DNA of 64,000 nucleotides, taken from Candidatus Methanomethylophilaceae archaeon. GTDB taxonomy: Archaea > Thermoplasmatota > Thermoplasmata > Methanomassiliicoccales > Methanomethylophilaceae. Made by a program: the position numbers and the translations under genes. The notes below the pieces were generated by a model. It was not told the DNA's origin and searched no databases. It was given only the letters and a program-made list of their open reading frames with translations. This document shows, one piece after another, positions 1,210 to 63,674 of the stretch (position 1 is the first letter of the stretch; each line of letters begins with the position of its first letter). Location of the stretch: NCBI GenBank assembly GCA_944320495.1, contig CALUHR010000009.1, forward strand, positions 79,645 to 143,644. Direction: 5' to 3'.

Positions 1210-3135
1210 ATGTTCGAGATACTCAGGCGGGACGGACTCGCCAGGATAGGCAGGTTCACCGTCGGCGACAAGGTCGTCGAGACCCCGGCTCTGCTCCCGG
1301 TGGTCAACCCAAAGATCTGCACCGTGCCGCCCAGGGAGCTCCACGACAGGTTCGGATTCAACGCTCTGATTACCAACTCATACATCATACGCAACATCCC
1401 CGAGCTCAAGGAGAAGGCCCAGGCCATGGGGCTGCACGAGATGCTCGACTTCCCCGGGGTCATCATGACGGATTCCGGCACGTTCCAGAGCCACATGTAC
1501 GGCGAGGTCGAGGTCACCAACGAGGAGATCGTCGAGTTCCAGAAGTCCATCGGCACGGACATAGGCACGGTCCTCGACGTGTTCACGGAGCCGGACTGGT
1601 CCCATGAGAAGACCAAGCGCTCCCTGGAGACCACCCTCGAGAGGACGAGGAAGGCGTGCGAGATCAAGGGGAAGATGATGATCAACGGCGTCGTGCAGGG
1701 TTCCATCTACACCGATCTCCGCGAGTACAGCGCCTCCGCCATGGCCGACATGGACGTGGACGTCCACCCCGTCGGAGGCGTTGTGCCGCTGATGGAGCAG
1801 TACCGCTACTCCGAGCTGGTCGATGTGGTCATGGCATCGAAGAAGGGTCTCAACCCCTCGCGCCCGGTACATCTCTTCGGCGCCGGGCATCCGATGATCC
1901 TCGCTCTGGCAACGCTGATGGGCTGCGACCTCTTCGATTCCGCATCCTACGCCAAGTTCGCCAGGGACGACAGGATGATGTTCCTCGACGGGACGTTCAG
2001 GCTCCAGGACATGCAGACACTGGACTGCGGATGTCCCGCCTGCCAGGGCCACACCCTTCAGGACCTCAGGAAGATGAGCAAGAACGCCCGCACCAAGCTC
2101 ATCGCCGAGCACAACCTCTACCAGATCACGCAGGAGCTGGCACTCGTCAAGAGATACCTCCGCGAGGGCAGGCTCTGGGAGCTCGCCGAGATCCGCTGCC
2201 GCGCCCACCCGGCGCTGCTCGACGGTCTCAGGAGGCTGAGGGAGTGGCAGGACCTCATGGAGCGCTACGATCCCATAAGCAGGGAGGGGGCGGTGTTCTA
2301 CACAGGTCCGGAGACCCGCGCCAGGCCGGTCTACATGAGATACGCCGAGAGGCTGAACTCCAGATACGTCCCCGAGACCAGGAAGGCCGCGTTGTTCCCC
2401 GAGCCCTCGGGCAAGCCGTACAGCAGACCGTACGCGGAGGAGTTCGCCAGGGTCCGCCGCGCAGGGTACACCCCGGTGGTGGCCAGCCCGTGGGGTCCCG
2501 TCCCCGCCGAGCTGGATGAACTCTATCCTCTGGCGCAGTCCGTCTTCCCGGAGTGCCAGGACCGCGAGACCCAGGAGGAGTCCGAGAGGCTCACCGCCGA
2601 GTTCCTGGAGTCAAAGTTCGACGTGGCCGTGGAGTACGACCAGGTCCCGGATGCAGAGGGGGAGGATGTCGATGCGGACAAGATCCGTGCCAAGGCCGTC
2701 GCCCGCTACCAGTTCGGCATCGATGCCGCCGATGCGCTGTTCAGGGAGCCCATCGAGCTCGTGAAGTCGAAGAAGACGGGGAAGATCCGCAACGTCATAT
2801 CCGACGGGGAGCACGTCCTCTCCATGCGTGCCGGCGATGGGATGTACACCCTCAGGATGGAGGGCGCCAAGAGGATCGTCGCCGCCGTGTCCGCGCCCTA
2901 CATGCGCGTCGCGGTGGTCGAGGACTCCGTCCCGTTCGTATCGGAGGGGAGGAACGCGTTCGCACAGTTCGTGCTCTCCTGCGATCCCGACATCCGCCCG
3001 ATGGAGGAGGTCATCGTGACCGACCCGTCGGACAGGCCCATCGCCACAGGCAGGGCGTTCCTGACCGCTTTCGAGATGGGCTCGATGAAGAAGGGGATGG
3101 CCGTCAAGGTCAGGTCCGGCTCGGACGACGAATGA
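1210..3135 (+). CDS. tgtA: Archaeosine tRNA-guanine transglycosylase
   Basis: MFEILRRDGLARIG start, IMTDSGTFQ, HLFGAGHP, DLFDSASY, CGCPAC Zn site, C-terminal PUA domain. Confidence 0.95.
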   Translation: MFEILRRDGLARIGRFTVGDKVVETPALLPVVNPKICTVPPRELHDRFGFNALITNSYIIRNIPELKEKAQAMGLHEMLDFPGVIMTDSGTFQSHMYGEVEVTNEEIVEFQKSIGTDIGTVLDVFTEPDWSHEKTKRSLETTLERTRKACEIKGKMMINGVVQGSIYTDLREYSASAMADMDVDVHPVGGVVPLMEQYRYSELVDVVMASKKGLNPSRPVHLFGAGHPMILALATLMGCDLFDSASYAKFARDDRMMFLDGTFRLQDMQTLDCGCPACQGHTLQDLRKMSKNARTKLIAEHNLYQITQELALVKRYLREGRLWELAEIRCRAHPALLDGLRRLREWQDLMERYDPISREGAVFYTGPETRARPVYMRYAERLNSRYVPETRKAALFPEPSGKPYSRPYAEEFARVRRAGYTPVVASPWGPVPAELDELYPLAQSVFPECQDRETQEESERLTAEFLESKFDVAVEYDQVPDAEGEDVDADKIRAKAVARYQFGIDAADALFREPIELVKSKKTGKIRNVISDGEHVLSMRAGDGMYTLRMEGAKRIVAAVSAPYMRVAVVEDSVPFVSEGRNAFAQFVLSCDPDIRPMEEVIVTDPSDRPIATGRAFLTAFEMGSMKKGMAVKVRSGSDDE

Positions 3136-3144
3136 CCGGGCCAC

Positions 3145-3164
3145 GGGGGCGCGTCGGCGCCCCC
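3145..3164. terminator. GC hairpin between convergent tgtA and fprA
   Basis: GGGGGCGC-GTCG-GCGCCCCC perfect 8-bp stem followed by an A-run. Confidence 0.55.
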
Positions 3165-3180
3165 GGCCCCAAAAACGATT

Positions 3181-5152: not shown

Positions 5153-5782
5153 GTGGACAAGGTAGAGATGTCGCCCATCCTCCTCTCTCCCGGCAACAGG
5201 CTGGTGACGGTCTTCGGAGGGGGTAGGGTCGCCCTTCGCAAATGCCGCCATTTTGACGGATTCAGGATACGCGTGGTCTCCGAGGAGGTCATGCCCGAGC
5301 TGAGGGAGCTGGCGGAGGAGGTCCTCATCGATTCCATCGACAGGGACAACGTCCTGCGCTACATCGAGGGGTCCGACATCGTCGTGGCCGCCACGTCCGA
5401 CCACGCGCTCAACGATATGATAAGGGACACCGCTATGTCCCGGGGGATAATGACCAACTCCGCCCACGGCGGAGGGGACGTCCTAATACCATCGACCCTC
5501 CACAGGGACGGCTGGACGGTCTGCGTGTCATCCGAGGGTCGCGTCCCGGCGTTCCCACCCTATGTGATCGAGAGGATCGACGAGATGCTCGACCCATCGT
5601 ACGATGCGATGCTGGCACTGCTGGTCGACCTGAGGGTCGTCATAAGGGAGAGGATACCCACGCAGCCAGGTAGGGCGGAGTTCCTCGCAGGGGTGCTCGC
5701 AGATGAGGACGTCTGGGACCTCCTGAGGGAGGGCCGCGGCGGGGAGGCGAGGGAGCTGGCTCTCGCGAGGGGAGGTCTCCGA
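5153..5782 (+). CDS. sirC: Precorrin-2 dehydrogenase (SirC/CysG N-terminal type)
   Basis: VTVFGGGRVALRK Rossmann motif, VVAATSD, VCVSSEG; GTG 5153 chosen after TATA-like AAATATAAT; ends CTC CGA TGA (CGA 5780-5782 overlaps hemA ATG, TGA 5783-5785). Confidence 0.85.
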
Positions 5783-14251: not shown

Positions 14252-15025
14252 ATGATATTCGTCTTCTCCGGCACGGGGAACTCGTACGCGGCCGCCAAGC
14301 GCATCTCCGAAGCCATCGGCTCCGGCATGATCGACATCGCCGCGGCGGTGAGGTACAAGCGCTACACCTACGACGCCAAGGGAGAGCCCGTCGGGTTCGT
14401 GTTCCCCACCTACTACTACGGGCTCCCGCGCATGGTCCTCGAGTTCGCCAGGAACGTCACAGTCCTGAACCCCGGCAGGGTGTTCGCCGTGACCACCTGC
14501 GGGGAGGAGTCCGGAGGGGCCTGCGAGATGCTCGCCGAGGAGCTCGGCAGTCGTCTGAGGGTCGATGCATCCTACGACGTGGTCATGCCCGACAACTCCG
14601 TCTTCGCCTTCGACCCCCCGACAAAGGAGCAGGCGGAGGAGACGCTGAGGGCCGCCGACGCCGAGATCGACCGCATCATAGGGTCCATCAAGGCGGGTGA
14701 GTCGGGAGACATGTGCGCCCACAAGGGTGACAAGGACTGGAGGGAGATCTATGCGCTCTACGACGAGCAGCGCGTGACGGAGCCCTTCAGGATCACCGAC
14801 GCCTGCATCGAGTGCAGGATCTGCGAGGACATCTGCCCGGAGCAGATCATCAAGGTCTACCACAGGAAGCCGGTCTGGGACGAGGAGAAGTGCTCCCTCT
14901 GCATGGCCTGCATCCAGATGTGCCCCAAGGGGGCGATAGAGTACGGCGATGCCACGGTGAACCGCGGCAGGTACTACAACCCAATCTTCTACGAGAGGAC
15001 CATCGGGATACCGCTGAAGTACCGA
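14252..15025 (+). CDS. EFR1 family ferrodoxin (flavodoxin plus 2x[4Fe-4S])
   Basis: MIFVFSGTGNS, GFVFPTY, CIECRICEDICP, CSLCMACIQMCP; ends ...GIPLKY-CGA (15023-15025); standard-code end 15073. Confidence 0.85.
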
Positions 15026-44422: not shown

Positions 44423-45172
44423 ATGGCGAAGGGAAGGCTACACGTGGTCGGGTTCGGACCCGGCGGGAAGGACGACATGACGTTCCGCGCCGCGCGTGTC
44501 ATAGAGAACGCCGACGTGGTCACCGGATACACGACGTACATCAATCTCCTGAGGCCGATCTTCCCGGACAAGGTCTACAAGGCCACCGGGATGATGAAGG
44601 AGGTCGAGCGCTGCAGGATGGCCATAGAGGACGCCGTGTCCGGGAAGGACGTGGCGATGGTATCATCCGGAGACTCCGGCATCTACGGCATGGCGGGGAT
44701 CATCTATCAGCTGGCGGACGAGATGGGCGCCGACATCGAGATCGACACCGTCCCCGGCATCACCGCCGCATCGTCTGCCGCATCCATCCTGGGCGCACCG
44801 CTGATGCACGATCTGGTCATCGTCAGCCTGTCGGACCTGATGACGCCCCTGGACCTGATCATGGACAGGGTCGGGAAGGCGGCCGAGGGCGACTTCATCA
44901 CATGCATCTACAATCCCAAGAGCAAGACCAGGACCGAGTACCTGGGCATGGCGAGGGACATCCTTCTGAAGCACCGCTCGCCGGAGACCCCGGTCGGCAT
45001 CGTCAGGAACGCCGGCAGGGAGGACCAATCGAGCAAGGTCACCACCCTGGGCGGTCTCGACCCCGCGGACGTGGACATGTTCTGCATCGTGATCGTCGGG
45101 AACTCGCAGACGTACGTGTCCAACGGCCGCATGATCACACCCAGGGGCTACAGGATCCAGGGAGGCGAGCGA
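44423..45172 (+). CDS. cbiH: Cobalt-precorrin-3B C17-methyltransferase
   Basis: VVGFGPG, SSGDSGIYGMAG, PLMHD, SLSDLMTP, YNPKSK, TPRGY; ends IQGGE-CGA (45170-45172); standard-code end 45355. Confidence 0.93.
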
Positions 45173-47673: not shown

Positions 47674-48230
47674 GGGAGATAACGATCGAGGACATACCGT
47701 TCCTCACGCCGATAGGCAAGGGTCAGCTCGGGGTGGACTACATCTCCGACGAGGACTTCGAGAAGGCCATCTCCGATCCGGGGCAGTTCTGTCTCATCCC
47801 CGTCGTGGACGGCGTCCCCTCTGGATTCGCCATATGCAAGGAGTTCGGCCCCGAGTCCGAGCCCGAGGCGCTGGCGCTCCCAGATTCTGGATACAGGGAC
47901 TGGGTCAGGTCCAGGAGCAGGATCGGCCTGGTGGACTCCGTCGCCCTGTCCCCGTCGGTCGGCGGAAGGGGGATCGGCAAGGCCCTCTGCGAGGCCTGTC
48001 TGGAGAGGTTCTCCGAGGACGGGTGCGATTCCGCGGTGTCGATGGCGTGGGTCCATGAGGACGGCGTCGAGCCCATCAGGAAGGCGCTCACGCAGTCCGG
48101 TTTCGAGAGGACCGACCTCGTCATACGCGGCTACTGGAACTCCTGGGTCGACACCGAGGGGGGACACATGTGCCCCTACTGCGGCTCGCCGTGCAGGTGC
48201 TCCGGAGCCCTGTGGCGGAGATCGCTCTGA
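47670..48230 (+). CDS. GNAT-like acetyltransferase with C-terminal Cys motif
   Basis: DSVAL...GGRGIGKAL motif A; CPYCGSPCRC; GTGA overlap with upstream gene. Confidence 0.75.
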   Translation: MREITIEDIPFLTPIGKGQLGVDYISDEDFEKAISDPGQFCLIPVVDGVPSGFAICKEFGPESEPEALALPDSGYRDWVRSRSRIGLVDSVALSPSVGGRGIGKALCEACLERFSEDGCDSAVSMAWVHEDGVEPIRKALTQSGFERTDLVIRGYWNSWVDTEGGHMCPYCGSPCRCSGALWRRSL

Positions 48231-49142
48231 CACCCTGGCCGACAGCCATGCGCCGATGTCGGCATAGACCTCGTCGCGGTTGGTCTCGTTCATCAGCTCG
48301 TGCCTCGCACCATCGTAGAGCTTCATCTCGGGGTGCAGGCCCGCCTTCTCCAGGAGCCTTCTGGCCTTCTCGACGCCCTTCCCGTCGTCGCCGACCGGAT
48401 CCTTCGATCCGGACAGCAGGATGACCGGGAGGCCCTTCGGGATCCTATCGATGTCCTGACCGCTCACATCCTTTCTGATGAGCGTGAAAAGGTCCCTGTA
48501 GCCGGAAACGGTGAATTTGAAGCTACAGAACGGGTCCGAGTTGTATGCCTCGATGGCCGCAGGGTCACGGGAGAGCCAGCGATTCCTCATGTCAGGCTCC
48601 CTGAACCTCTTGTCGTAGTTCTCAAGCACCATCCTGTTCAGCATGGGGCTGACGTAACGGGGCCCCTTCATCCTGACCAGGGTCTGGGCCAGGAATCTGG
48701 CGAATCCGACCACTGCAGGGGGCTGGTTGCCAGTGCCCACCAGGATGACGCCGTCGACCATGTCGCCGTAGCGGGTGATGTAGCGTCTGACCACATAGGA
48801 GCCCATGCTGTGGCCGAGGATGAAATGTGGTACGCCCGGGTGATCGGAGTCGATGCGCTGGGTCACCAGGTACAGGTCCTCCACGAGATGCTCGTCCCCG
48901 TCGGATTCGGCGATGGTGCCGTGGTCGTCGGGGCTCGTCCTCCCGTGTCCCAGATGGTCGTGCCCTATGACCGCGATGCCGAGGACGTTGAGATGGAGTG
49001 CCAGCGGTTCGTATCTGGCTATGTGCTCTATCATGCCGTGGGCGATCTGCAGTGTGGCTATCGGGGATTCGGGGGACCATTCCATGCAGTGGAGGTCAGT
49101 TCCGACGACCGATGACGGGACGGTGAACTCACGGAGGGACAT
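48222..49142 (-). CDS. Alpha/beta hydrolase (lysophospholipase family)
   Basis: IAHGMIEH, GHDHLGHG, GHSMGS, SGSKDPVG, ARHELMNE; ends ARVSE-CGA (48224-48222); standard-code ORF runs on to 46479. Confidence 0.9.
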
Positions 49143-49262
49143 GGTGGATACCATGATATGCACACTTAAAAACGGCATCAGGGAAGCTTCGTGTCCGGAC
49201 GAAGCATCGGTGTTACGAATTGTTATCAAAATATTAATATCGTCATAACCGTAGCCGAGGCC

Positions 49263-50036
49263 ATGCGCAGGATAGCCGTCTACGGCAAGGGCGGGATAGG
49301 GAAATCGACCACCGTGGGCAACGTCTCCGCGGCGATGGCGGAGTCGGGCCTCAGGGTGATGCAGATCGGCTGCGATCCCAAGGCCGATTCCACCCGTGCC
49401 GTGGCCGGCAGGGCGATACCTACCGTTCTGGACAAGATCCGCGACGATCCCGATGCGGAGCTCGGGGACCTGGTCCACGAGGGCCGCGGGGGAGTTCTCT
49501 GCGTCGAGTGCGGCGGACCCCGTCCGGGCCGTGGATGCGCCGGCAGAGGGATCATAGCCGCGTTCGAGAAGCTGGAGGAGCTGGACGCAATCGGCACCTA
49601 CCATCCGGACGTCATCCTCTATGACGTTCTCGGTGACGTGGTGTGCGGTGGGTTCGCCATGCCCATCCGCAACGGCTACGCCCGCGACGTGTTCGTGGTG
49701 ACATCCGGGGAGATGATGTCACTCTACGCGGCCAGCAACATCGCCGGGGCGGTGGCGGACATGAGGAACGAGGGATACGCCAGGCTGGGCGGGCTGATCC
49801 AGAACTCCCGCGGCGTGAGGGACGAGGACTCGCTCGTCGACCGCGCCGCGTCGGAGATGGGCGTGCCCGTAATCATGAGGCTCCCCAGGGACCCGTCCGT
49901 CCAGAGGTGCGAGGAGGCCGTCACCACGGTCGTATCGGGGGAGCCCGACTCGCCCATGGCCTCGAACTACAGGGAGCTGGCCAAACGCATCCTCTCGGCA
50001 TCCGAGGACGTCGAGGGCGGTATGAGACTGGAGCGA
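49263..50036 (+). CDS. cfbC: Ni-sirohydrochlorin a,c-diamide reductive cyclase ATPase subunit (NifH-like)
   Basis: [44 protein letters not shown]; CGA 50034-50036, TGA at 50045. Confidence 0.85.
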
Positions 50037-50041: not shown

Positions 50042-50827
50042 ATGAAGACTGGGATTCTTATTGGCGGGCACGGTTCGACGATGTCGTTCAACAAGGGCGT
50101 GCTCGATATGCAGGCCGACAGACTGAGGGCGAAGGGCTACGACAACGTCTACGTGGGGTTCAACGAGACCTCCTTCCCGTCGCTGGCCGAGGCGGCCACC
50201 GAGATGGTCAGGGACGGATACGACCGCATCGTCATCCTCCCGTTCTTCGTCGCATCCGGCCTACACATCACCAGGGACTTCCCCATGAAGCACTTCGGGC
50301 TCCCGAGGGACGCCACGGACGGCGTCTGGGAGTGCGAGGGCAGGGAGGTCGCCATCCACATCGAGCAGCCCTTCGGCGACGAGCCCCTCCTCGGGGAGAT
50401 CCTGGCGGAGAGGGTCGAGGAGCTCCGCACGCCCGGGAAGAGAACGGCCATCATCGTCATGGGTCACGGCTCGAGGCTGGAGTACAACAGGAACGTGGTC
50501 AACCTCAACGCGGACAGGCTCAGGGCCAAGGGCTACGACATGGTGTACATAGGGTTCAACGAGTTCGACGAGCCCAAGATCGAGGACGTCATACCCGGGA
50601 TCATCGACGACGGCGCCGAGGAGATCATCGCCCTGCCGCTGTTCATCTCGCTCGGCAAGCATCTGACCATGGACGTACCCGCGAAGCTCGGCATCGAGAA
50701 CTTCTCGGACGGCGGGATCGTCCACCGCGACGGGAGGGACGTCGAGGTCAAGTACGCCCAGCCCGTCGGCGCCGACCCCAGGCTCTGCGACGTGCTCGTG
50801 GAGAAGCTCCGGAGGCTCGGACTGCGA
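50042..50827 (+). CDS. cfbA: Tandem-domain CbiX/CfbA sirohydrochlorin chelatase
   Basis: Two CbiX halves ([17 protein letters not shown]; [18 protein letters not shown]); ends CTG CGA TGA. Confidence 0.82.
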
Positions 50828-52038: not shown

Positions 52039-53105
52039 GGACGGTCATCCATCCCCGCCCGAGCCCGATCGTCGCGGCGATGTACACCCTGCGCGACATG
52101 GACGTCGACGTCATCGTCGTGCACGGCCCGGCCGGATGCAGCTTCATGGCGTCCCGCCCGCTGGAGGACGCCGACATCAGGGTGGTGACCTCCGCCATGA
52201 GGGACAGCGACCTCATCTTCGGGGCGTCGGACCAGCTCGTGGACACCCTGAGGCAGGTGGAGGAGAGGTTCCATCCCTCCACCGTCGCCGTCATAGGAAC
52301 ATGTGCGAGCATGATCATCGGCGAGGACATGGGCAGCTCCATCAGGAAGGCGGGGATAGACGCGAACGTCTTCCCCGTGGACGTCCACGCCTGCATGGGC
52401 GACAACACCCGCGGGGCCATCAAGGCCCTGGAGGCCGGCAGGGACGCGGGGATCATCGACCCCGAAGAATGCGACCGCCAGATATCGCTGATGAAGGCCG
52501 CCACGCGTCTCGAGAAGAACGTGGGGATGGCCTCCAAGGACTACATCCGCCCGGCCACCAGCCCGACCAAGATGCACGTGTGCAGGCGCATAATGGACGT
52601 GCTCTCGTCCGGAGGCAGGGTCGCCGTGGTGATGGACGCCAAGAAGGAGCTCGCATACCGCTTCGCGGACATGTTCGAGGCGGTGGACCGCGCCAGGGGG
52701 AGGCTCGGAGGCGAGACGCTGTTCGTGGCGAACCTGGACGGGTCCAAGGGACTGCCGAGGATCAGGGGCTACTGCAGCGAGATCCTCTCGGACCTGGGAT
52801 CAAAAGGCGTCTCCATCGACGAGATCGTCGGAGGGCTCGACGAGTACTCCGTCGTCGGCGAGGAGATGCGCTCCAGGATCGATGCGTTCTCACCCGACCT
52901 CACCATCGTCCTCGGGATATGCCATGCGATCCCGGGGATCTCCGCCGACGACATCCTGATCACGGACCAGCCGAGGCAGCTGGCCAACTACCTCAACATG
53001 GGATGCGAGTGGGCGGTCGGGGAGATATCGTCCCATACGATGGTCATGGGAGCCCATTCGATCGTCCCGATGGAGACGGCCGACACCCTGAGGGAGATGC
53101 TGTGA
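52035..53105 (+). CDS. cfbD: Ni-sirohydrochlorin a,c-diamide reductive cyclase catalytic subunit
   Basis: HPRPSPIVAAMYTLRD, HGPAGC, GTCASMIIGED, AKKELAY. Confidence 0.92.
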   Translation: MRTVIHPRPSPIVAAMYTLRDMDVDVIVVHGPAGCSFMASRPLEDADIRVVTSAMRDSDLIFGASDQLVDTLRQVEERFHPSTVAVIGTCASMIIGEDMGSSIRKAGIDANVFPVDVHACMGDNTRGAIKALEAGRDAGIIDPEECDRQISLMKAATRLEKNVGMASKDYIRPATSPTKMHVCRRIMDVLSSGGRVAVVMDAKKELAYRFADMFEAVDRARGRLGGETLFVANLDGSKGLPRIRGYCSEILSDLGSKGVSIDEIVGGLDEYSVVGEEMRSRIDAFSPDLTIVLGICHAIPGISADDILITDQPRQLANYLNMGCEWAVGEISSHTMVMGAHSIVPMETADTLREML

Positions 53106-54445
53106 GAGGTGTCGTCATAGCCGGCACCGGCAGCGGGGTCGGCAAGACTTCCATCGCGACGGGGCTGATGTCCCGTCTCTCCAAGGTCCGCAGGGTCCAG
53201 GCCTTCAAGGCCGGTCCAGATTTCATAGACCCGATGTACCACACGGCGGCCACCGGCAGGCCGTGCAGGAACCTGGACTCGTTCCTGATGGACGACGACA
53301 CGCTGAGGAACCTGGCGGGATACGCCTCGCGCGACGCCGACCTCTGCGTGGTGGAGGGTGTCCGCGGTCTGTACGAGGGCTTCTCCGGCGACGGCGACAT
53401 CGGGTCCACGGCGTACACCGCCAAGCTGCTGGGGTTCCCGGTGATCCTCGTGGTGGACGCACGCTCTCTCACGCGCAGCGCGGCCGCCGTCGTGAGGGGG
53501 TTCAGGTCGTTCGACCCCGACGTCAGGATCGCGGGCGTGATCCTCAACAACGTCTCCGGGGAGCAGCATGCGGGGAAGCTCCGCACGGCGTTCGAGACCT
53601 ACTGTTCGGACGTCAGGCTCGTCGGGATGATACCGAAGAGCCCGGGGAAGGCCCTTGAGCAAAGGTACCTCGGGCTCCGCACGCTCAGGACGTTCGCCGA
53701 GCGCGAGATAACGCCGCTCCAGGAGCTCACAGAGCCGATAGACCTGGACGCGGTCCTCGACATAGCGGAATCCGTGGACGTCGACCTTCCGGACGGGTCC
53801 CCGTATGCGGAGAGGGACTGCGGCCTGAGGGCGGCCGTCCCCATGGACGAGGCGTTCTGCTTCTACTACTGCGAGAACATCGAGTGCCTGGAGGCCTCCG
53901 GATTCAGGGTGGAGACCTTCCGCCCGACGGACGGGGATCCCCTCCCGGACGCGGACCTGTACTATCTCGGCGGGGGATATCCCGAGCTCCACGCCTCCGA
54001 CATATCGGCGAACAGGGATTTCCTGGAGGGTCTGGGCACCGCTGCCGCCGACGGGAAGGCGATAATAGGCGAATGCGGCGGTCTCATGGCGATGTGCCGC
54101 TCCATCGAGGACAAGGACGGGAACGTCCACCCGATGTCCGGGGTCTTCGATGCCGAGGCGAGGATGACCGGCGTCCGTCACGGACCGACGTACGTCGTGG
54201 CCGAGGCGACAAAGGGCAATCCGATGTTCGCCGGGACGGTCCGCGGGCACGAGTACCACTATTCGGACGTCTTCCCCTCGGAGGATGCCAGTTTCGGGTT
54301 CGAGGTCCACAGGGGACGGGGTATCGCGGGCTGTCGGGACGGTCTCGTCAGAGGCAATGCCATAGGCTCCTACATGCACCAGCACGCCCTCTCGGAGAGG
54401 GACTGGATCGGCACGGCGGTCGAACGCATCGTAAACGGCCGTCGA
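53102..54445 (+). CDS. cfbB: Ni-sirohydrochlorin a,c-diamide synthase
   Basis: SGVGKT, FKAGPDFIDP, EGVRGLYEG, GGYPE, GHEYHY, GSYMHQH; ends RIVNGR-CGA; standard-code end 54508. Confidence 0.88.
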
Positions 54446-55483: not shown

Positions 55484-55567
55484 ATGAAAGCCAAGAACGT
55501 CAGTCTGATGGCTGGGGCGGCGGTCGTCGTAGCGGCTTGCCTGCTCTTCTCCTGGGTCTACCTCTGA
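55484..55567 (+). CDS. Small single-TM peptide (27 aa)
   Basis: MKAKNVSLMAGAAVVVAACLLFSWVYL-TGA, with TTAAATA upstream; below the track length cutoff. Confidence 0.35.
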   Translation: MKAKNVSLMAGAAVVVAACLLFSWVYL

Positions 55568-55601
55568 TCCAGAACACGGGGCTGTCCCCGTGATTCCCCG
55601 A

Positions 55602-55865
55602 TCGGCGCAGAAGATGCCCGATCGCCATCACGGGAAGGCGGACGATGATCTGGGGGCCGCTGTATCTCATCAACGTCCCCCTGCGGTCTCGCATCTCCCA
55701 GCGGTAGCGGTGCCTCTCGCATCTGTCACAGCGCGGTACTCCCCCTCCCCCCGAAGGGACACGAGACAATTCTGGGCATGGCGTCGTCGAACCTTGCACG
55801 CTTTCGCAGCGCATTCACACCATCCACCCAATGGTGTCCCTCTCCCTGTCAAGGATGCCGCTCAT
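55602..55865 (-). pseudogene. Decayed YgbA (nitrous oxide-stimulated promoter family) gene
   Basis: MSGILDRERDTIGWMV* ...PCPEL...CDRCERH...MRYSGP...AIGHLL; internal TGA, and the conserved CPFG appears in another frame. Confidence 0.6.
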
Positions 55866-55918: not shown

Positions 55919-56548
55919 TCGCTCGCCGCCGAGACCCTTGTAGTACGAGCCGTACGTGTAGAGGGCTCCGACGGGGTTGTGGGCCAGGACCCTGTCCTTG
56001 GTCACCAGGGTAGTGACGGGGGCCTCCGAGTTCCTGTAGAACAGGCTGTCGTGGCCGACGCAGAGGCCGACGAGGATGTTCAGGTCCGTCTTCTGGGCGT
56101 TGAGCATCTTCGCCTGCAGGACAGGGTTGCAGGTGTAGTAGCCGACATCGCAGCACTCCTCCCCGATCCCCACGTCCTCCTTGGGGACCATACCGGCCTT
56201 GCACGAGATGCCGAAGACCTCGAACCCGTTGCTCCTGAGTATGGACGCCAGGGTCCTGGACTCCGAGATCAGGCCGATGCAGGTCGCTATCCCGATCCTG
56301 CGGTATCCCATGCGCCTGGCGAACTCCATGGTCTCCCTGACGCGGCACCAGCGCATGTACCCCTCGTGCTCCACCTCGGCGGCCGCCTTTAGGATCCTGC
56401 CCTCCTCCGTGTCCCCGTAATGCTCCAGGGCCTCGCTCCTGAGGTCCTCGGGCATGGAGTCCGTGAGGCAGAACTGGGGGCGCTTCCCTCCGACGATGTC
56501 GCATCCCTTCATCGCGCAGTCTACGCATGAGCGCTGGTTCTCGGACAT
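55919..56548 (-). CDS. DUF1847 family Cys-rich protein
   Basis: GIATCIGL, CKAG, CNPVLQA, GLCVGHDSLF, KDRVLAHNP; ends YYKGLGGE-CGA; standard-code end 55862. Confidence 0.85.
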
Positions 56549-57235: not shown

Positions 57236-58039
57236 ATGGCATTCGATGGAAGGGCGGGAATCGTCGACATCGACGAGGATGAGAGGACCGTCATTTTCGA
57301 CACCTACAGGCTCAAGAAGATCACCGGCACGAGGGTCGCTCCGATCCTGGGGATGAGCGACTTCGCCACTCCCTTCAAAGTGGCCTGCGAGATGGCCGGC
57401 CTGTATCCCGGAGACAAGCCGAACAAGTACATCGAGGCAGGGAACATCCTCGAGCCCGTGATCCGCGGGTACGTCGCCAAGGGCTGCGACGCCCTCGTGA
57501 GGCCCCAGCTCGGCATCCCCGCCGGGGAGAGGATCGGCGTCGAGGAGCCGGTCGAGAAGGAGCTCTGCGGGTACGACCACTTCCACAACGAGCCGATCTT
57601 CGGAGGCATGGTGGACGGGTACATCGTGGTCGAGGGGAGGCGCTCGGCAATCCTCGAGATCAAGACCGCCTCCGACCGCACCAAGTGGGAGGACGGGGAG
57701 GGCGGTTACACCAACGTCCCGATGAACTACATGCTCCAGGCGTCCCTGTACGCGAAGCTGTCCAATCTGGACAAGATCGTCTTCGCCGTCGGATTCCTGG
57801 AGGAGCCCGACTACGACCGCCCCAAGCAGTGGGTACCCGCCCCGGAGAACACGTACATCGTCGTCAAGGACAGGCTGGACATGGACGACTACATGCAGAG
57901 ATGCGTGGACTGGTACAACGAGTACATGAAGGGCGGCTACACGCCGGAATGGTCCGACTCCGAGGACGACCAGATGGTCCTCAAGTACCTCAAGGCCTAC
58001 AAGCCCGGTCAGAACAAGAAGAGGAACGGGAGGCGCCGA
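57236..58039 (+). CDS. YqaJ-like PD-(D/E)XK nuclease
   Basis: ITGTRVAPILGMSDF.TP, GGMVDG, ILEIKT, Y.LQ..LY; ends KKRNGRR-CGA 2 nt before the next ATG; standard-code end 58135. Confidence 0.78.
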
Positions 58040-58041: not shown

Positions 58042-58545
58042 ATGGACGCGATCTTCACGAGGAGGAGCGTCAGGGACTTCACCGACGAGAGGGTCTCCGA
58101 GCGGGACATCGAGAAGCTGCTCGACGCCGCCATGAGCGCCCCCTCGGCGAGGAACCAGCAGGCCTGGGAGTTCGTCGTCGTGGACGATCCGGAGGTCATC
58201 GGCACCCTGTCCGAGGCCTCCCCGTACGCCAAGACCGTCGGGAGGGCACCGCTCTGCATCGTGCCGCTGGGAGTGTCCGAGGACATGACGGTCCCCCAGA
58301 TGTGGCAGCAGGACATGGGCGCGGCGACCGAGAACATCCTGCTCATGGCCGCGTCCCTCGGTCTCGGGACGTGCTGGATCGGCATCGCACCGATCGAGGA
58401 GAGGATGGACGCCGTCCGCAGGGCCGTGGGCTGTCCCCAGGACAGGCTCCCGTTCTGCCTCATAGCGGTGGGGCATCCTAAGCAGCCCCTGGAGGAGCGC
58501 CCTGGCCGCATGATGCCGGACAGGGTGCACCGCAACAGGTACCGA
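58042..58545 (+). CDS. Nitroreductase family protein
   Basis: IFTRRSVRDF, APSARNQQAWEF, LGLGTCWIG; ends RVHRNRY-CGA; standard-code end TAG 58560. Confidence 0.9.
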
Positions 58546-58547: not shown

Positions 58548-59675
58548 TCGGAGCAGGTAGTATACGGCAGCCAGGAGGACCACCATCAGGACGTTGGTGG
58601 CCGTGAACAGTGCCAGATATACCTTCATGTCCGCACCCTCCGTGCGGGCGTAGAATCCGAGGGAGATCATGCTGGCCATGGAGGCTATCGGCGTCCCGAA
58701 GCCTCCTATGTCGACCCCGACCAGCAGGCCCTGCCAGTCCCCGGTGAATCCGGACAGCAGGGTCGCGGCCGGGACGTTGCTGATGACCTGGCTCATCGCG
58801 AGGGACGTCATCATCGGATCCCACGACATCATGCCCTCAAGGGTCCCCCTCACCACGTCGAGCTGGGCGATGTTGCCGGTGAAGACGAACAGGCATACGA
58901 ATGTCAGGAGCAGACCGTAGTCCACACCCTTCAGGATCGAGCGCCTGGTCACGACTATCGCGGCAACCGTGACCAGCAGCACGGCCTCCCAGGGGATCAC
59001 GCGCAGGACGCAGAGGACGCACAGCACGAACAGCACGCCCATCAGTGCCAGCAGTCCGCGGTTCCTCACGTCGCGTTCCCTGCTTATGTCCACGTGGACC
59101 TCCCTGCCACTGAAGGGCAGGCACATGGCGCAGAGGACCAGCCCGCCCACGACGACGTAGGGTGCCAGCAGGAGGACGAACTCGCCCGTGTCCAGAGCGT
59201 AGCGGGAGTGGATGTACAGGTTCTGGGGGTTCCCGAACGGGAGGAGCATGCTGCCGAGGTTCGCGGCGAGGGTCTGGAGGACGACGACCGGGAGGATGCT
59301 GCGCGTCTCGCCCGCCATCCCCAGCACGAGTATCGTGAACGGCACGAACGTGATGAGGGCGACGTCGTTGGTGATCAGCATCGAGCAGAAGAACGGCAGC
59401 ATGACGAGGATCAGGCTGAGCATCCGCAGGCTGCGCCTGCCCGCGAGCAGTCTCCCCGCCAGGGCGCCGAAGAGGTGGCACTCCTTCATGCCGGCGACCA
59501 CCGCCATGAAGCAGAACAGGATGCCGAGCGTGCGGACGTCGATGTATCCGATGTAATCGGACGACGGCGGGACGATCGCCATGGAGGCCACCGCCAGCAC
59601 GGCCGAAGTCACAAGGACGACGTTGCGGTGCAGGAATGCCGACACCCTCGTGCGTGCGTCCTCCGTTCCGTCCAT
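58548..59675 (-). CDS. SLC13/ArsB-NhaD family anion permease
   Basis: SMLITNDVAL, ANLGSMLLPFGNPQNL, SQVISNVPA, GGFGTPIASMAS; ends VYYLL-CGA; standard-code end 57990. Confidence 0.85.
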
Positions 59676-60668: not shown

Positions 60669-62080
60669 GACGATTCCTCCAGGGCCTCCTCGATCCTCCG
60701 GTCGTGTCCGGCGGATAGCATCTCATCGTTGTAGCGGTACAGCGCCCCGTCGGGCTCGGAGTACATGACGACGCTGTAGCATCCCAGCAGCCCCGAGAGG
60801 AACGAGACCGGCTCCTGCCCGTTGCCGAAGGCGGCCCTCAGGCACTCGACGGCGTTGGTGAGCCTGCGGTCGAAGCGCTTGCGCCATTCCCCGGCCCTCG
60901 ACCCGGTCTCGGTGCGGAGGCGGGAGATCCCATCCTCGGTCGGTTCGATGCCGTGCAGGGCGGACAGGCAGAACGCCGCCGATGCGGAGGCCTCCCTCGT
61001 CGCGTTCGAGGCCATGGTCGCTTTCAGCCTCTCGCTCACGGCATCGAGGGATCCCCGCGGGTCGGCGGGGTCGAGGGCGTCGCATTCCCTGCGCAGGGCC
61101 TCGATGCCCATCCCCTGCTGGGCGTCCGCGTTGAGGTGCCCAATGAGCACGGATATTATGGACAGCTTCGCCTCCGCGCCTGCGGCCGACAGTGAATCCA
61201 GGTCGACGTCCCTGCCCCCGAGGATGGACTCCACGTCGTAGTCCTCGTTGTACTTCCTGTGGAACTCCAGGTAGCGCTTGAACTCGGCCGCGATGTCCGG
61301 GTTGCGGACGTACTGCGATATTAGGTTCACGCCCACGCTCCGGCCGAGCCTCTCGTGCTCCTTCAGGACGGTGGAGAGGTCCTCCCACGCCCTCGGGGTG
61401 ACGAACATGGGGCCCTCCGGGGTGCTCTCGATGCTGAGGAGGTTCTGGGGCTTCACCTGCAGATAGTATGTGATCGCGTCGTGCATCCCGGAGCTCATGG
61501 CGTACCTGAGCCACACCTGCGTGTCAGGCTCCACGTCGATGAGCCTGATCCTGTCCAGCGTCGCGATGTCGAACTCCCTGGCGGAGGAGTTGAACTCCGG
61601 AGGGTTGCCGGCGGCCATGAGCACCCACCCGTCGGGTATGCGGTGCGGTCCGAACTTCTTGTTCTGGAGGAGGTCCAGCATAGCTGCCGACAGTGTCTCG
61701 GAGACGCAGTTGACCTCGTCGATGAACAGGATGCCCTCGCTGACGCCCTGGTCCTCCATCGCCTCGTACACCGAGGCGACGATCTCGCTCATAGTGTACC
61801 TGGTGATGGGCATCTCCACCCCTCCGAAGCTCCTGGTCTCAATCATCGGCAGGCCGATGGCGGACTGGCGGGTGTGATGCGTGATGGTGTATCCCACGTA
61901 TCCGATGCCCATCTCCGCCGCGATCTGCGACATGATGGCGGTCTTCCCCAGTCCCGGCGCCCCCATGACCACGATCGGTCTCTGTCTCGCCCTGGGGATG
62001 ACGTAGTTCCCCGCGGCGTCCTTGTCCAGGTACGCGGCCACGGCGTCCCTGACGCAATCCTTCGCTTCCTGTATGTCCAT
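60665..62080 (-). CDS. MoxR-like AAA+ ATPase
   Basis: MGAPGLGKT, LFIDEVNC, AAGNPPE, TPRAWE. Confidence 0.88.
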   Translation of the reverse strand: MDIQEAKDCVRDAVAAYLDKDAAGNYVIPRARQRPIVVMGAPGLGKTAIMSQIAAEMGIGYVGYTITHHTRQSAIGLPMIETRSFGGVEMPITRYTMSEIVASVYEAMEDQGVSEGILFIDEVNCVSETLSAAMLDLLQNKKFGPHRIPDGWVLMAAGNPPEFNSSAREFDIATLDRIRLIDVEPDTQVWLRYAMSSGMHDAITYYLQVKPQNLLSIESTPEGPMFVTPRAWEDLSTVLKEHERLGRSVGVNLISQYVRNPDIAAEFKRYLEFHRKYNEDYDVESILGGRDVDLDSLSAAGAEAKLSIISVLIGHLNADAQQGMGIEALRRECDALDPADPRGSLDAVSERLKATMASNATREASASAAFCLSALHGIEPTEDGISRLRTETGSRAGEWRKRFDRRLTNAVECLRAAFGNGQEPVSFLSGLLGCYSVVMYSEPDGALYRYNDEMLSAGHDRRIEEALEESS

Positions 62081-62082
62081 CG

Positions 62083-63330
62083 TCGCACCTCCCCGGGCGA
62101 CAGGTCGGCCGACCTCACGACCAGCCTCATCGCCCATGGCGGGACCTCGTGGTCCATGTAGCGGTCGTCGCAGAAGACGAACGCCGTCCTGTATGCGGGG
62201 CGTCTCTCAGGGAACGTCCCCTTCCCGTCCGTGAAGTACATCAGCCCCCGTAGGTTCCCGAAGGTCCCGTCCTCGACCAGCGAGTCCACGTACTCGAAGA
62301 CGGGGCGGAAGTTGGTGCCGCCGCCCCCTATGAGGCGGAATCCGTCCATCAGTCTGCGGAGGTCCGTCTCGCTCCTGACCACGTCGTCCGAGCGGACCTC
62401 GTCGTCGCATTGGATGATGTGGAGGTTCGACCGGCCTCCGAACCCGGCCTGCCTCAGGGCCGAGTAGGCCTCCTCGAGGAACGCGACCACCGGTCCGCGC
62501 ATCGTCGATCCCGAGGTGTCCACGGCTATCACGAACTCGTCCACGCGAGGTCTGTCGGAGGATTCGAGCGAGTCTATGAGCGGGATGTTCCCGTAGGCGC
62601 GGAGCCCGTAGGTGTAGTAGATCGGGTCGAACTCGTCGATGTTCTCCCTCACGTCGGGTCTGGCGGACACGAACCTGCGCAGGAACGAGCGGTAGTCGTA
62701 GCGTCTGCGGTTCCTGATCCTGAGTATCGGCAGGATCCCGCCCGCCGACGGGTCGTTGCGCACTACGAACCCCTCCAGCTCGGTCATCGCCTGCTGGGCG
62801 AGGTCGCGCCATCCCGCCGTGTCTGCTTCCGCGTGGGCGGTGTCGTCGTCGACCGTGAACAGCTTCCCATAGAGTCCGGACTGCCATTCCGACAGGTCCG
62901 ATACGGCAGCTGCCACGAGGTCCGGGGCGGGGGCACCGGCGCGTTTGAAGATCTTCTCGCATGCGTACATCCGGTCGTCGCGCCCCCTGACGGACGTGTG
63001 GGGCGTGTCCATGGTGTCCAGGACGTACTCGACGATCATGTCCTCGGCCAGGAGCCTGGATGCGGGTGCGGACGGGTCCGTGTGCCCCAGCAGGCAGTGG
63101 AAGACGCAGTGGGCCAGCTGCCTGGTCACCATGTTGCGCTCCTCGCGGTAGTCGGAGATGACGGAGTCGCGGCGGAACCTCACGGTCGAACCGTCGCACT
63201 CCGGGAGACCCGTCCCGGGGACGATCTCGCGTCTCAGCGAGAACACCGCCATGGTCATGAAGCGCATGTCCAGGCACAGGCCGTTCGCCGCTGAGGAGAC
63301 GATCTCCGCGGCGAGCTCGTCGGCATCCAT
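62083..63330 (-). CDS. DUF2201-type metallopeptidase-like + vWA protein
   Basis: HCVFHCLLGH, IAVDTSGS (MIDAS), IQCD, GGGGTNF, YFTDG; ends SPGEV-CGA-CGA, the second CGA overlapping the MoxR ATG; standard-code end 61843. Confidence 0.85.
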
Positions 63331-63674
63331 CACGACCCCTTCATCCGGCCGTACTTGGCCTCAATCACGGCGGCATCGTCGTCGCCCAGGTCGCCCATGT
63401 AGTAGTTCAGCCTGGACTCCGGGATGCGGTACTTCTTGTCTGTGCGGATGTGGGACCGGGAGTCGAGGCCCGCGTCGTAGGGCTCCATCGGCTTCATGAA
63501 TGTGCCCGGATCGTGCGGATGCGTGGTGACCATCATCACGTTGTAACCGTCCCCGCTCCTGCCGAGGATGACGACCGGGCGGTTCTTGGAGCCGTCGCTG
63601 CCGTCGAACGGCATGTCGGCGTTCCACACCTCCATCGGTCTGGCTGAGCCCCTGCGGGCGGGTGCTGGCTTCAT
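63330..63674 (-). CDS. PemK/MazF-like protein
   Basis: EVWNADMPF...K.RPVVIL, MVTT; TGATG coupling to the vWA gene. Confidence 0.65.
   Translation of the reverse strand: MKPAPARRGSARPMEVWNADMPFDGSDGSKNRPVVILGRSGDGYNVMMVTTHPHDPGTFMKPMEPYDAGLDSRSHIRTDKKYRIPESRLNYYMGDLGDDDAAVIEAKYGRMKGS

What the first reader, a model, noticed from the sequence alone, without database searches (positions are those of the whole stretch)
1210..63674. CGA is absent from intact coding regions while the other five Arg codons are used
I read ~5,500 codons by eye (tgtA, fprA, hemA, 4470 ORF, 19938 ORF, TBP-like, Sel1, 24580 ORF, LPD1, VirD4, GrpE-like, CbiJ part, wHTH core, 54484 ORF, PemK) and found no internal CGA, although AGG, CGC, CGT, CGG and AGA all occur. 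This holds for the 956-aa Sel1 gene despite its relaxed codon usage. CGA does appear in spurious N-terminal extensions of track ORFs (14171, 19668, 36313, 56588, 57218), each upstream of a better ATG. The one internal CGA at a conserved Arg is in the YgbA pseudogene.
Basis: seen in the sequence. Interest (0 to 1): 0.8.

Follow-up and report, generated by a model that had tools for sequence, protein, structure and literature searches.

The report
Arginine codon CGA ends genes
In this gut methanogen the arginine codon CGA is missing from inside genes because it is used as a stop signal (about a third of the genes in this window end on it), which would be the first sense-to-stop change of the genetic code in a free-living cell.

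Summary
About 19,850 codons of 63 window genes (1,502 Arg codons) contain no interior CGA, where relatives' usage predicts 28-78. CGA is in frame at the 3' end of 21-22 window ORFs, and it is the real end of those genes.

Genome-wide, coding potential drops stepwise right after the first in-frame CGA, exactly as it does after TGA. Adding CGA as a fourth stop raises coding coverage, while ten control codons lower it. About 405 of 1,657 genes (24%) end on CGA. Seven window genes end at CGA where orthologues have TGA/TAA within 0-2 residues.

CGA still means Arg in at least the release-factor gene aRF1 (R78) and in L18e. tRNA-Arg(UCG) is kept, with a non-canonical anticodon arm in all ten genus members examined.

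New here: across the family, 28 genomes from 11 genera have 0 CGA among 5,663 neighbouring Arg codons. Every one of them keeps at least one CGA in aRF1, at changing positions.

The best reading is that aRF1 reads CGA and out-competes a weakened tRNA, with aRF1 regulating itself. The scan had already reached the CGA-as-stop reading on other pieces of this genome. I found no published description.

The parts
5153..5782 (+). NAD-binding (siroheme-synthase-like) gene ending on CGA at 5780-5782, with TGA directly behind it
14252..15025 (+). Flavodoxin/4Fe-4S protein gene ending on CGA at 15023; 16-codon non-coding tail to the next TGA. The CGAs at 14171 and 14201 lie upstream of the real start.
24499..25677 (+). 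393-aa gene of the low-GC island. Its last codon is CGA (25675-25677), followed directly by a standard stop.
25674..26507 (-). Island gene ending on CGA at 25676-25674; 17-codon tail
26972..27451 (+). 159-aa gene ending on CGA at 27449. The VirD4/TraG-like coupling protein (about 27479-28918) follows in the same frame, so a standard-code reading fuses the two into a 648-aa ORF.
31226..31942 (+). Transglutaminase-like gene ending on CGA at 31940; 96-codon tail
31980..33806 (-). ABC transporter (TMD plus full ABC_tran domain) ending on CGA at 31982-31980; 39-codon tail
33793..35505 (-). Second ABC transporter, ending on CGA at 33795-33793 with a 152-codon tail. The orthologue in G009 has a standard stop at the identical position.
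36144..37160 (-). Winged-helix gene. Its first in-frame CGA is at 36146-36144 (codon 339), 32 codons before the standard stop, so it probably ends on CGA. The end was not verified by orthologues.
37343..38713 (-). CobB/CobQ-type amidotransferase ending on CGA at 37345-37343; 7-codon tail
41720..42865 (-). CbiD gene ending on CGA at 41722-41720. Its A is the first base of the next gene's ATG (CGATG).
44423..45172 (+). Tetrapyrrole methylase ending on CGA at 45170; 61-codon tail. G009 has a standard stop at the identical position, and other relatives stop 2-5 residues earlier.
48222..49154 (-). 310-aa alpha/beta hydrolase ending on CGA at 48224-48222. The 581-codon read-through tail creates the spurious 1041-aa ORF 46479-49604.
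49263..50036 (+). NifH-like (CfbC-type) gene ending on CGA at 50034. G013 has a standard stop at the same position.
50081..50827 (+). CbiX-type chelatase ending on CGA at 50825, in the arrangement CGATGA with the next gene's ATG
53102..54445 (+). CobQ/CobB-type amidotransferase ending on CGA at 54443; 21-codon tail. Orthologues in five species stop within 0-1 residue.
55919..56548 (-). DUF1847 gene ending on CGA at 55921-55919; 19-codon tail
57236..58039 (+). YqaJ-like gene ending on CGA at 58037. The CGA at 57218 lies in a spurious N-terminal extension.
58042..58545 (+). Nitroreductase ending on CGA at 58543
58548..59675 (-). CitMHS-type transporter ending on CGA at 58550-58548; 186-codon tail. 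G004 stops one residue later with a standard stop. It converges on the nitroreductase gene, and the two CGA stops are 2 nt apart.
62080..63333 (-). DUF2201 (VWA-like) gene ending on a tandem CGA CGA at 62085-62080. Orthologues stop with standard stops within 1-2 residues.
55500..55814 (-). YgbA_NO-like relic ORF matching only the second half of the family profile, with in-frame CGAs at 55691 (inside the domain) and 55604 (at its end)

Best explanation
The organism belongs to the genus that holds Candidatus Methanoprimaticola (Methanomethylophilaceae, Methanomassiliicoccales). Here CGA is a translation stop signal, second in use only to TGA.

Shown:
- Coding ends exactly at in-frame CGA in 21-22 of about 63 window genes and in about 405 of 1,657 genes genome-wide.
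- Orthologues carry TGA/TAA at those positions.
- CGA is otherwise absent from gene interiors.
- A few essential genes (aRF1 at R78, L18e) still need CGA read as arginine.
- tRNA-Arg(UCG) is retained with a non-canonical anticodon arm.

Inferred mechanism: the single release factor aRF1 binds CGA, which is one transition from its main stop UGA, and out-competes a deliberately weak tRNA-Arg(UCG). The in-frame CGA early in the aRF1 gene then gives negative feedback. Much aRF1 means termination at codon 78. Little aRF1 means read-through as Arg and more aRF1.

Inferred history:
- CGA use dwindled across the family, to 0-0.5% of Arg codons in many genera against 5% in an outgroup family, until it survived almost only in aRF1.
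- In the GC-rich species of this genus, TGA-to-CGA transitions then accumulated at stop positions, mainly in weakly expressed genes.
For: Position and coding signal:
- 36% of in-frame CGAs lie in the last 10 codons of standard-stop ORFs and 59% in the last 25. For 23 other rare codons the figures are 3-12% and 9-22%.
- The codon log-odds profile around the first CGA (159 genes) steps from +0.2..0.35 to about -0.5 at the very next codon. The profile at TGA/TAA/TAG in 1,231 CGA-free genes is the same. CGA was masked in the scoring.
- With CGA as a fourth stop, genes rise from 1,519 to 1,657, coding codons by 4.4% and coverage from 0.811 to 0.847, and overlaps fall. Ten control codons all lower coverage.

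Orthologues and domains:
- Orthologue ends match for the window genes ending at 50034, 50825, 54443, 58550, 33795, 45170 and 62085. In the reverse case, the window has TGA where G009 and G002 have CGA.
- The CGA-truncated proteins carry full-length Pfam domains.
- The 'interior' CGAs elsewhere in the genome are gene junctions or gene ends.

Residual sense use and the tRNA:
- Sense CGA at conserved Arg is seen in aRF1 R78 and in L18e.
- tRNA-Arg(UCG) scores as a real tRNA. In the genus it has A.A, C.A or U.C at pair 31-39, or C33 in G008. The tRNAs examined from eight other genera have a paired 31-39, and g17 instead has a mismatch at 27-43.

aRF1:
- In 28 family genomes there are 0 CGA among 5,663 neighbouring Arg codons but 31 among 601 in aRF1. 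All 28 have at least one, at about ten different positions.
- All ten other genus genomes sampled carry the R78 CGA as well.

Expression and backup stops:
- The CGA share of stops is 6% in the most codon-biased fifth of genes and 37% in the least biased fifth. A standard stop follows directly behind CGA twice as often as behind TGA, p = 0.018.

Experimental precedent:
- Yeast eRF1 releases peptides at CGA in competition with tRNA-Arg, more so with L123R (PMC7379694). This family's aRF1 has R at that position, in the motif YRCDS.
Against: - There are no protein or RNA data, so termination at CGA is inferred from sequence alone.
- The cognate tRNA gene is intact and conserved, so some read-through is expected and the tails could sometimes be translated.
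- aRF1's decoding motifs (NIKS, YxCxxxF, the GT-region) show no substitution specific to the CGA-stop species. The R in YRCDS is shared with relatives that read CGA as Arg.
- aRF1 genes of outgroup families also hold 1-4 CGAs. Retention in aRF1 could therefore be partly inheritance and not a new device.
- The +4 base differs from that at TGA stops (T 54% against 29%), and I cannot explain this.
- My gene caller is crude. It missed low-scoring island genes, and the figure of 405 CGA stops carries error.
Confidence: 0.68

Rival explanations
1. CGA is effectively unassigned. The weak or scarce tRNA-Arg(UCG) rarely reads it, ribosomes stall, and a rescue pathway (aPelota/ABCE1-type or similar) releases the protein instead of aRF1. 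The genes still end there, but by stalling and not by stop-codon recognition.
For: - The tRNA's anticodon arm is non-canonical throughout the genus.
- G008 has essentially no CGA at all, 0 of 1,087 aligned Arg codons and no CGA terminators, which is the classical picture of an unassigned codon.
- No aRF1 substitution tracks the trait.
Against: - A quarter of all genes relying on a stall-and-rescue path would be costly.
- Pelota-type rescue does not hydrolyse peptidyl-tRNA (own knowledge).
- Selection to keep one CGA in aRF1 in particular, in 28 of 28 CGA-free genomes, is explained by aRF1 acting on CGA and not by rescue.
- Yeast eRF1 does act on CGA.
Confidence: 0.14
2. CGA is an ordinary, very rare arginine codon. 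The terminal CGAs are former TGA stops lost by T-to-C transitions under GC pressure, and the tails are translated as harmless C-terminal extensions.
For: - A cognate tRNA gene exists.
- CGA terminators are concentrated in GC-rich species and in weakly expressed genes.
- CGA means Arg in aRF1 and L18e.
Against: - Tails reach 152, 186 and 581 codons, run through neighbouring genes, have non-coding composition and differ between 96%-identical genomes.
- Stop loss in 24% of genes, combined with total purging of CGA from interiors (0 of 1,502 Arg codons in the window), is contradictory unless CGA is harmful inside genes.
- Treating CGA as a stop improves gene calling, whereas control codons do not.
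Confidence: 0.06
3. C-to-U editing of mRNA turns CGA into UGA, so the genetic code itself is standard.
For: It would explain both the avoidance inside genes and the use at gene ends. CGA and UGA differ by exactly the C-to-U change. No direct evidence.
Against: - Editing would have to ignore the very frequent out-of-frame CGA trinucleotides. There are 402 in codon frame 2 in this window alone, where C-to-U changes the amino acid.
- Editing would also have to spare the CGAs in aRF1 and L18e.
- It gives no reason for aRF1 in particular to keep a CGA.
Confidence: 0.04
4. The pattern is an artefact of assembly, sequencing or my own gene calling.
For: The genome is a 14-contig MAG and my caller is home-made.
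Against: - The same pattern is seen in independent assemblies of many species, including complete single-contig genomes and a RefSeq record.
- CGA and TGA alternate at orthologous positions as real substitutions do.
- CGA was masked during scoring, and homology-based counts agree with the caller.
Confidence: 0.02

Closest known systems
Sense-to-stop codes of organelles: NCBI tables 2 (AGA/AGG, vertebrate mitochondria), 22 (TCA, Scenedesmus mitochondria), 23 (TTA, Thraustochytrium mitochondria). From own knowledge.
   Same: A sense codon vanishes from gene interiors and stands where genes end.
   Different: Those are tiny organelle genomes with a dozen or so genes. Here it is a free-living archaeon with about 1,650 genes. 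The cognate tRNA is kept, the codon keeps its amino-acid meaning in a few genes, and the release-factor gene itself carries the codon.
Yeast eRF1/eRF3 misreading of CGA (Wada and Ito 2018, PMC7379694)
   Same: A release factor of the eRF1/aRF1 family releases peptides at CGA in competition with tRNA-Arg. UGA-biased variants at L123 (F, R, Y) do so better, and this family's aRF1 has R at the homologous position (YRCDS).
   Different: In yeast it is a weak side reaction seen with reporters. Here it would be the normal end of a quarter of the genes. The R is shared with relatives that still read CGA as Arg, so at most it predisposes to the change.
Two hydrothermal-vent archaeal assemblies in which CGA is absent from conserved domains (Melnykov 2026 preprint, 10.64898/2026.04.02.715157)
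   Same: An archaeon with no CGA in recognisable genes, where the author raises the possibility that CGA is a stop.
   Different: It is a different lineage. There CGG is reassigned to Trp, tRNA-UCG was not found, and the stop reading was explicitly left untested. Here CGG is still Arg, the tRNA is present and the gene ends were tested.
Autoregulation of bacterial RF2 (prfB) through an in-frame UGA early in its own gene. From own knowledge.
   Same: A release-factor gene carries, early in its ORF, the very codon that the factor terminates on. This gives negative feedback.
   Different: prfB needs a +1 frameshift to pass the UGA. Here passing the codon needs only decoding by tRNA-Arg(UCG). Nothing is shown experimentally.
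Unassigned codons and codon capture (AGA/AUA in Micrococcus luteus, CGG in Mycoplasma capricolum). From own knowledge.
   Same: A codon driven out of use by composition and tRNA changes. G008 of this genus looks like that stage, with 0 CGA except in aRF1.
   Different: The codon disappears here in a GC-rich genome although it is not AT-rich. The tRNA is not lost, and the codon returns as a stop and not as another amino acid.
Stop/sense dual-use codons and 4-bp anticodon-stem tRNAs (Condylostoma, Blastocrithidia; bacterial survey PMC13092985)
   Same: One codon means stop at gene ends and an amino acid elsewhere, and changes in the anticodon stem tune the competition with the release factor.
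   Different: There stop codons became sense, and the shortened stem strengthens read-through. Here a sense codon became stop, and the altered arm presumably weakens decoding.

Membership tests
Sense-to-stop codon reassignment | The codon is absent from conserved interior positions of genes | tested here: met
   Window: 0 of 1,502 Arg codons apart from two in an ORF tail. Aligned genes of genus members: 0/1,087 and 1/1,326. Genome-wide only aRF1, L18e and one flavodoxin gene remain.
Sense-to-stop codon reassignment | Genes end at the codon where homologues have standard stops | tested here: met
   Seven window genes end within 0-2 residues of orthologues' TGA/TAA, and the reverse case was also seen. 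Coding potential drops stepwise at CGA. Full Pfam domains lie before the CGA.
Sense-to-stop codon reassignment | The cognate tRNA is lost | tested here: not met
   tRNA-Arg(UCG) is present in G000 and nine other genus genomes at 46-57 bits on the Rfam tRNA model. In all of them the anticodon arm is non-canonical.
Sense-to-stop codon reassignment | The release factor recognises the codon | not testable with these tools
   The evidence is only indirect: aRF1 genes keep an in-frame CGA, and there is the yeast precedent.
Unassigned codon (codon capture intermediate) | The codon is used neither as sense nor as stop, and no decoder exists | tested here: not met
   In G000 about 405 genes end on CGA and a tRNA exists. 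G008 comes close, with no CGA in 22,848 aligned codons and no CGA terminators, but it keeps the tRNA and the aRF1 CGA.
Autoregulated release-factor gene (prfB-like logic) | A conserved in-frame copy of the factor's own target codon lies early in its ORF | tested here: met
   CGA at R78 in all 11 genus genomes (G000 included), and at codons 9, 11, 25, 27, 50, 99, 105, 123 or 327 in other genera. It is present in 28 of 28 genomes whose neighbouring genes have none.
Autoregulated release-factor gene (prfB-like logic) | Expression responds to the factor's concentration | not testable with these tools
   This needs reporter or ribosome-profiling data.
Dual-meaning codon (stop and amino acid) | The same codon is decoded as an amino acid at some sites and ends translation at others in one genome | tested here: inconclusive
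   Sense use is inferred from conserved Arg positions in aRF1 and L18e, and stop use from gene ends. Both rest on sequence alone. The three sense CGAs are followed by C or G, and 54% of terminators by T, but there are too few sense cases to test this.

The most novel reading that the evidence does not exclude
CGA is a regulated codon with two meanings in a whole clade of gut methanogens. aRF1 reads it as stop, and a detuned tRNA-Arg(UCG) reads it as Arg just often enough to make aRF1 and L18e. aRF1 controls its own synthesis through its in-frame CGA.

The family preserves the successive stages of a sense-to-stop codon capture:
- a rare sense codon (Methanogranum-type genera);
- a codon kept only in aRF1 (G008, g17);
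- a common terminator (this genome).

This would be the first sense-to-stop reassignment in a cellular genome, seen while in progress.
Probability: 0.55. Interest if true: 0.95.

Novelty: new variant of a known kind. Interest (0 to 1): 0.9.

Why it matters
Variant genetic codes in free-living cells have so far meant stop-to-sense or sense-to-sense changes. A sense codon that becomes a stop, while its tRNA survives, challenges the idea that such a change is only possible in tiny organelle genomes. It would also give a natural series of intermediates for testing codon-capture against ambiguous-intermediate models.

There is a practical cost as well. Standard annotation (table 11) of these gut methanogens gives a quarter of the proteins false C-terminal tails, fuses neighbouring genes, hides genes under long read-through ORFs and puts wrong sequences into protein databases. 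This window alone has a spurious 1041-aa ORF and a 648-aa fusion.

The link between aRF1 and CGA also offers a testable case of release-factor autoregulation in archaea.

Tried and rejected
- **Frameshift or assembly-error model.** If CGA merely marked an ORF drifting into a non-coding frame, the fall in coding potential should come before the first CGA and be smeared. It falls at the very next codon, so I rejected this.
- **Four-base overlap explanation.** ATGA overlaps force an NNA last codon, but other A-ending rare codons show no such 3' enrichment. Rejected.
- **aRF1 substitutions.** I looked for changes specific to the CGA-stop species in the NIKS, YxCxxxF and GT regions and found none.
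- **tRNA loss in G008 and G015.** My first conclusion was that these two complete genus genomes lack tRNA-Arg(UCG), because three pattern searches and one BLAST search failed. The prediction that their aRF1 would then lack CGA failed. A covariance-model scan of G008 then found the tRNA, divergent and with C33. The negatives were false. G015 was not rescanned.
- **Sample of 120 kb per relative with my caller.** It suggested interior sense CGAs in G059 and G037. The homology-based count reduced these to 5 and 2.
- **Backup stops behind CGA.** The enrichment is only modest (6.2% against 3.3%), so this is weak support for leakiness.
- **Literature.** Searches for a prior description in Methanomassiliicoccales or Methanoprimaticola found none in the held library.


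Full report
**Setting.** The window is G000:C9:79645-143644 of a 1.77-Mb, 62% GC, 14-contig genome with an archaeal tRNA set. Its aRF1 gene is 91% identical to that of Candidatus Methanoprimaticola sp. MG2. Its relatives are titled Methanomethylophilaceae or Methanomassiliicoccales MAGs from guts.

**Observation.** I called genes with a self-trained codon model in which CGA was given score zero, so that the result could not be circular. Genome-wide, standard-stop ORFs hold 517 in-frame CGAs in 480,251 codons. The other Arg codons are AGG 16,181, CGC 9,486, AGA 1,913, CGT 1,638 and CGG 1,049. CGA is very common out of frame, with 33,401 in frame 3. So CGA is not literally absent from ORFs. Its placement, however, is extraordinary:
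- 36% of in-frame CGAs lie in the last 10 codons and 59% in the last 25, with a median relative position of 0.94.
- For 23 other rare codons the shares are 3-12% and 9-22%.

In the window, the in-frame CGAs of called ORFs sit at codon 209 of 210, 257 of 273, 608 of 647, 456 of 463, 447 of 468 and so on, or within the first three codons. With the gene ends corrected, 63 window genes (19,850 codons, 1,502 Arg codons) have no interior CGA. Usage in relatives predicts 28-78.

**CGA marks the end of coding.**
- The mean codon log-odds around the first in-frame CGA of 159 genes is +0.2 to +0.35 up to the codon before it and -0.58 at the codon after it, and it stays near -0.5. The profile around TGA/TAA/TAG in 1,231 CGA-free genes is the same. 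CGG, CCA and TCA show no step. A frameshift or wrong-ORF origin would smear the drop upstream of the CGA.
- Calling genes with CGA as a fourth stop raises the gene count from 1,519 to 1,657, coding codons from 478,646 to 499,764, coverage from 0.811 to 0.847 and the summed score by 7.6%, and it reduces overlaps. Each of ten control codons used the same way lowers coverage to 0.74-0.805.
- Stops then read TGA 1,182, CGA 405 (24%), TAA 52 and TAG 18.
- In the window 20 of 60 called genes end on CGA. Adding 24499-25677 makes 21, and 36144-37160(-) probably makes 22.
- Several genes that the standard reading hides or fuses reappear. These include the second ABC transporter, a tetrapyrrole methylase, a hydrolase buried in a 1041-aa ORF, a YqaJ-like gene, a nitroreductase and a DUF2201 gene.
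- All of these carry complete Pfam domains upstream of the CGA.

**Orthologues.** I compared syntenic loci and single-gene loci of genus members.
- ...GGMRLE-CGA in the window is ...GGMRLE-stop in G013.
- ...VYYLL-CGA, followed by 186 more codons, is ...VYYLLM-stop in G004.
- ...LEDFDVEH-CGA is ...LEDFDDER-stop in G009.
- ...YRIQGGE-CGA is ...YRIEGSE-stop in G009.
- ...LSPGEV-CGA-CGA is ...LEPEGVS-stop in G002.
- The CobQ-type gene ends within one residue of five orthologues.
- In the reverse direction, the window's ...WRRSL-TGA is ...WIGSL-CGA in G009 and ...WYREL-CGA in G002.
- In outgroup families CGA aligns with Arg inside genes.

**What is left as sense.** I inspected the candidate interior CGAs in the genome. 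Most are same-frame gene junctions (SIS|HAD, FMN_red|FMN_red, NifH-like|NifD-like) or true ends of EamA, NikR, Ni-insertion and ankyrin genes. The convincing sense CGAs are these:
- aRF1 codon 78, the conserved R of ...IAARLK..., which aligns with R in human and haloarchaeal RF1.
- One Flavodoxin_4 gene, with the CGA inside the domain.

These three are followed by C, G and C. Terminator CGAs are followed by T in 54% of cases.

**The tRNA.** tRNA-Arg(UCG) is present (G000:C13:413317-413390) and scores as a normal tRNA. Its anticodon arm is odd in all ten genus genomes examined:
- A31.A39 with U32 and C38 in G000 and G018;
- C31.A39 in G004, G072, G046, G061, G002 and G001;
- U31.C39 in G013;
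- C33 with a C27.C43 mismatch in G008.

The tRNAs examined from eight other genera have a paired 31-39, and g17 has a mismatch at 27-43 instead. Different lesions at the same arm, in a gene that is always kept, look like selection for a weak decoder and not like decay.

**Distribution.** The share of CGA among Arg codons in aligned genes of 100-kb samples was:

| Genome | Group | CGA / Arg codons |
|---|---|---|
| G024 | outgroup family | 28/543 |
| G084 | g12 | 24/1,278 |
| G032 | g11, Methanoplasma-type | 22/1,161 |
| G059 | g23, Methanogranum-type | 5/1,033 |
| G037 | g16 | 2/874 |
| G087 | g17 | 0/1,071 |
| G008 | same genus | 0/1,087 |
| G015 | same genus | 1/1,326 |

CGA terminators are common only in the GC-rich members of the genus: G018 9/22, G009 5/16, G001 4/13 and G002 4/16. 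They are rare in G015 and G004 and were not seen in the samples of G008, G013, G061 and G072. One is conserved in g17. So loss of sense CGA is wider than the genus, and its use as a stop is patchy and follows GC content.

**aRF1.** In 58 family genomes I compared aRF1 with its neighbours.
- The 28 genomes (11 genera) whose neighbouring genes hold 0 CGA among 5,663 Arg codons all have at least one CGA in aRF1, 31 among 601 Arg codons in total.
- The positions are always conserved Arg or Lys sites, and they differ between and even within genera: codons 9, 11, 25, 27, 50, 78, 99, 105, 123 and 327.
- Kinship inflates any P value, but there are about ten separate placements.
- In CGA-using family members aRF1 is still three-fold enriched, 34/525 against 107/4,839.
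- All 12 outgroup aRF1 genes carry 1-4 CGAs. The association may therefore be old in the order, and part of it is inheritance.
- A gene that alone keeps a codon purged everywhere else, and that encodes the factor which ends translation, is best explained if that factor acts on the codon.

**Strength of the signal.**
- The CGA share of stops rises from 6% in the most codon-biased fifth of genes to 37% in the least biased fifth.
- A standard stop stands directly behind CGA in 6.2% of cases, against 3.3% behind TGA (p = 0.018).
- 22% of CGA stops are CGATG, and 11% overlap a called start by one base.

Together this fits a usable but second-rate, possibly leaky terminator that spreads by TGA-to-CGA transitions where selection is weak.

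**Mechanism and rivals.**
- I favour direct reading of CGA by aRF1 in competition with the weakened tRNA, with feedback through aRF1's own CGA.
- The experimental precedent is yeast. There eRF1/eRF3 release peptides at CGA, compete with tRNA-Arg, and do so better with UGA-biased L123F/R/Y variants (PMC7379694). This family's aRF1 has R at that site, but so do relatives that read CGA as Arg. It can therefore only be a predisposition.
- Stall-and-rescue without aRF1 cannot be excluded.
- General C-to-U editing is unlikely. Out-of-frame CGA is abundant at positions where editing would change residues, and aRF1 and L18e would have to escape it.
- Translated tails are unlikely given their length, composition, overlap with other genes and lack of conservation.

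**Known or new.** In the held library I found no description of CGA as a stop in Methanomassiliicoccales.
- The Codetta survey cannot infer stops and reports no archaeal sense change.
- A 2026 preprint raises, without testing, the same possibility for two unrelated vent archaea that lack tRNA-UCG.
- Earlier agents of this scan reached the CGA-as-stop reading on other pieces of this genome, and also noted the aRF1 CGA and the odd tRNA. I had reached the stop reading independently and tested their points here.

**Limits.**
- Everything rests on DNA sequence.
- My gene caller is crude.
- Samples of relatives are 20-120 kb.
- G015's tRNA was not rescanned with a covariance model.

Noticed in passing
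window 19900-28950: A low-GC island (57% against 63%) holds a 956-aa Sel1-repeat protein, unknown genes and a VirD4/TraG-like coupling protein, so it is probably an integrated conjugative element. It obeys the host's rule: no interior CGA, and three of its genes end on CGA. Either it has been resident for a long time or its donor uses the same code.
   Followed up: partly
window 46479-49604 (-): The longest ORF of the region (1041 aa) is an artefact. It is a 310-aa alpha/beta hydrolase (48222-49154) read through its CGA stop for 581 further codons across neighbouring genes.
   Followed up: yes
window 58543-58550: Two convergent genes, a nitroreductase on the + strand and a CitMHS transporter on the - strand, both end on CGA, and the two stop codons are 2 nt apart.
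   Followed up: partly
window 62080-62085 (-): A tandem CGA CGA ends the DUF2201 gene. The 96%-identical relative G018 has the same doublet.
   Followed up: partly
window 55500-55814 (-): The YgbA_NO-like ORF matches only profile positions 53-98 and carries in-frame CGAs at 55691 and 55604. It is either a decaying gene or a further sense CGA.
   Followed up: partly
G000:C8:55331-55837 (L080): A Flavodoxin_4 gene has an in-frame CGA at codon 119 inside the domain (...GKTI-CGA-PFCT...). It is a third candidate for sense CGA, or a gene switched off by it.
   Followed up: partly
G000:C13:193621-194700 (L076): SIS (GmhA-like) and HAD (GmhB-like) domains lie in one frame, separated only by a CGA five codons before the DxDxT motif. 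In G059 the two are fused in one ORF and a CGA encodes the R of that motif. This may be a regulated fusion or read-through site.
   Followed up: partly
genome-wide: Once CGA is treated as a stop, TAG ends only 18 of 1,657 genes and TAA only 52. The near-absence of TAG stops fits the pyrrolysine use known for this order (own knowledge). Pyl genes were not looked for.
   Followed up: no
aRF1 genes of 12 outgroup genomes (L273-L284): In six of the 12 Methanomassiliicoccales outgroups sampled, the R in the YxCxxxF motif of aRF1 (YRCDS, homologous to yeast L123) is itself encoded by CGA. Every outgroup aRF1 has 1-4 CGAs.
   Followed up: partly
genome-wide CGA stops: The base after a CGA stop is T in 54% of cases (29% after TGA) and A in only 8%. 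CGATC and CGATG together make up 47%. I have no explanation for this.
   Followed up: partly
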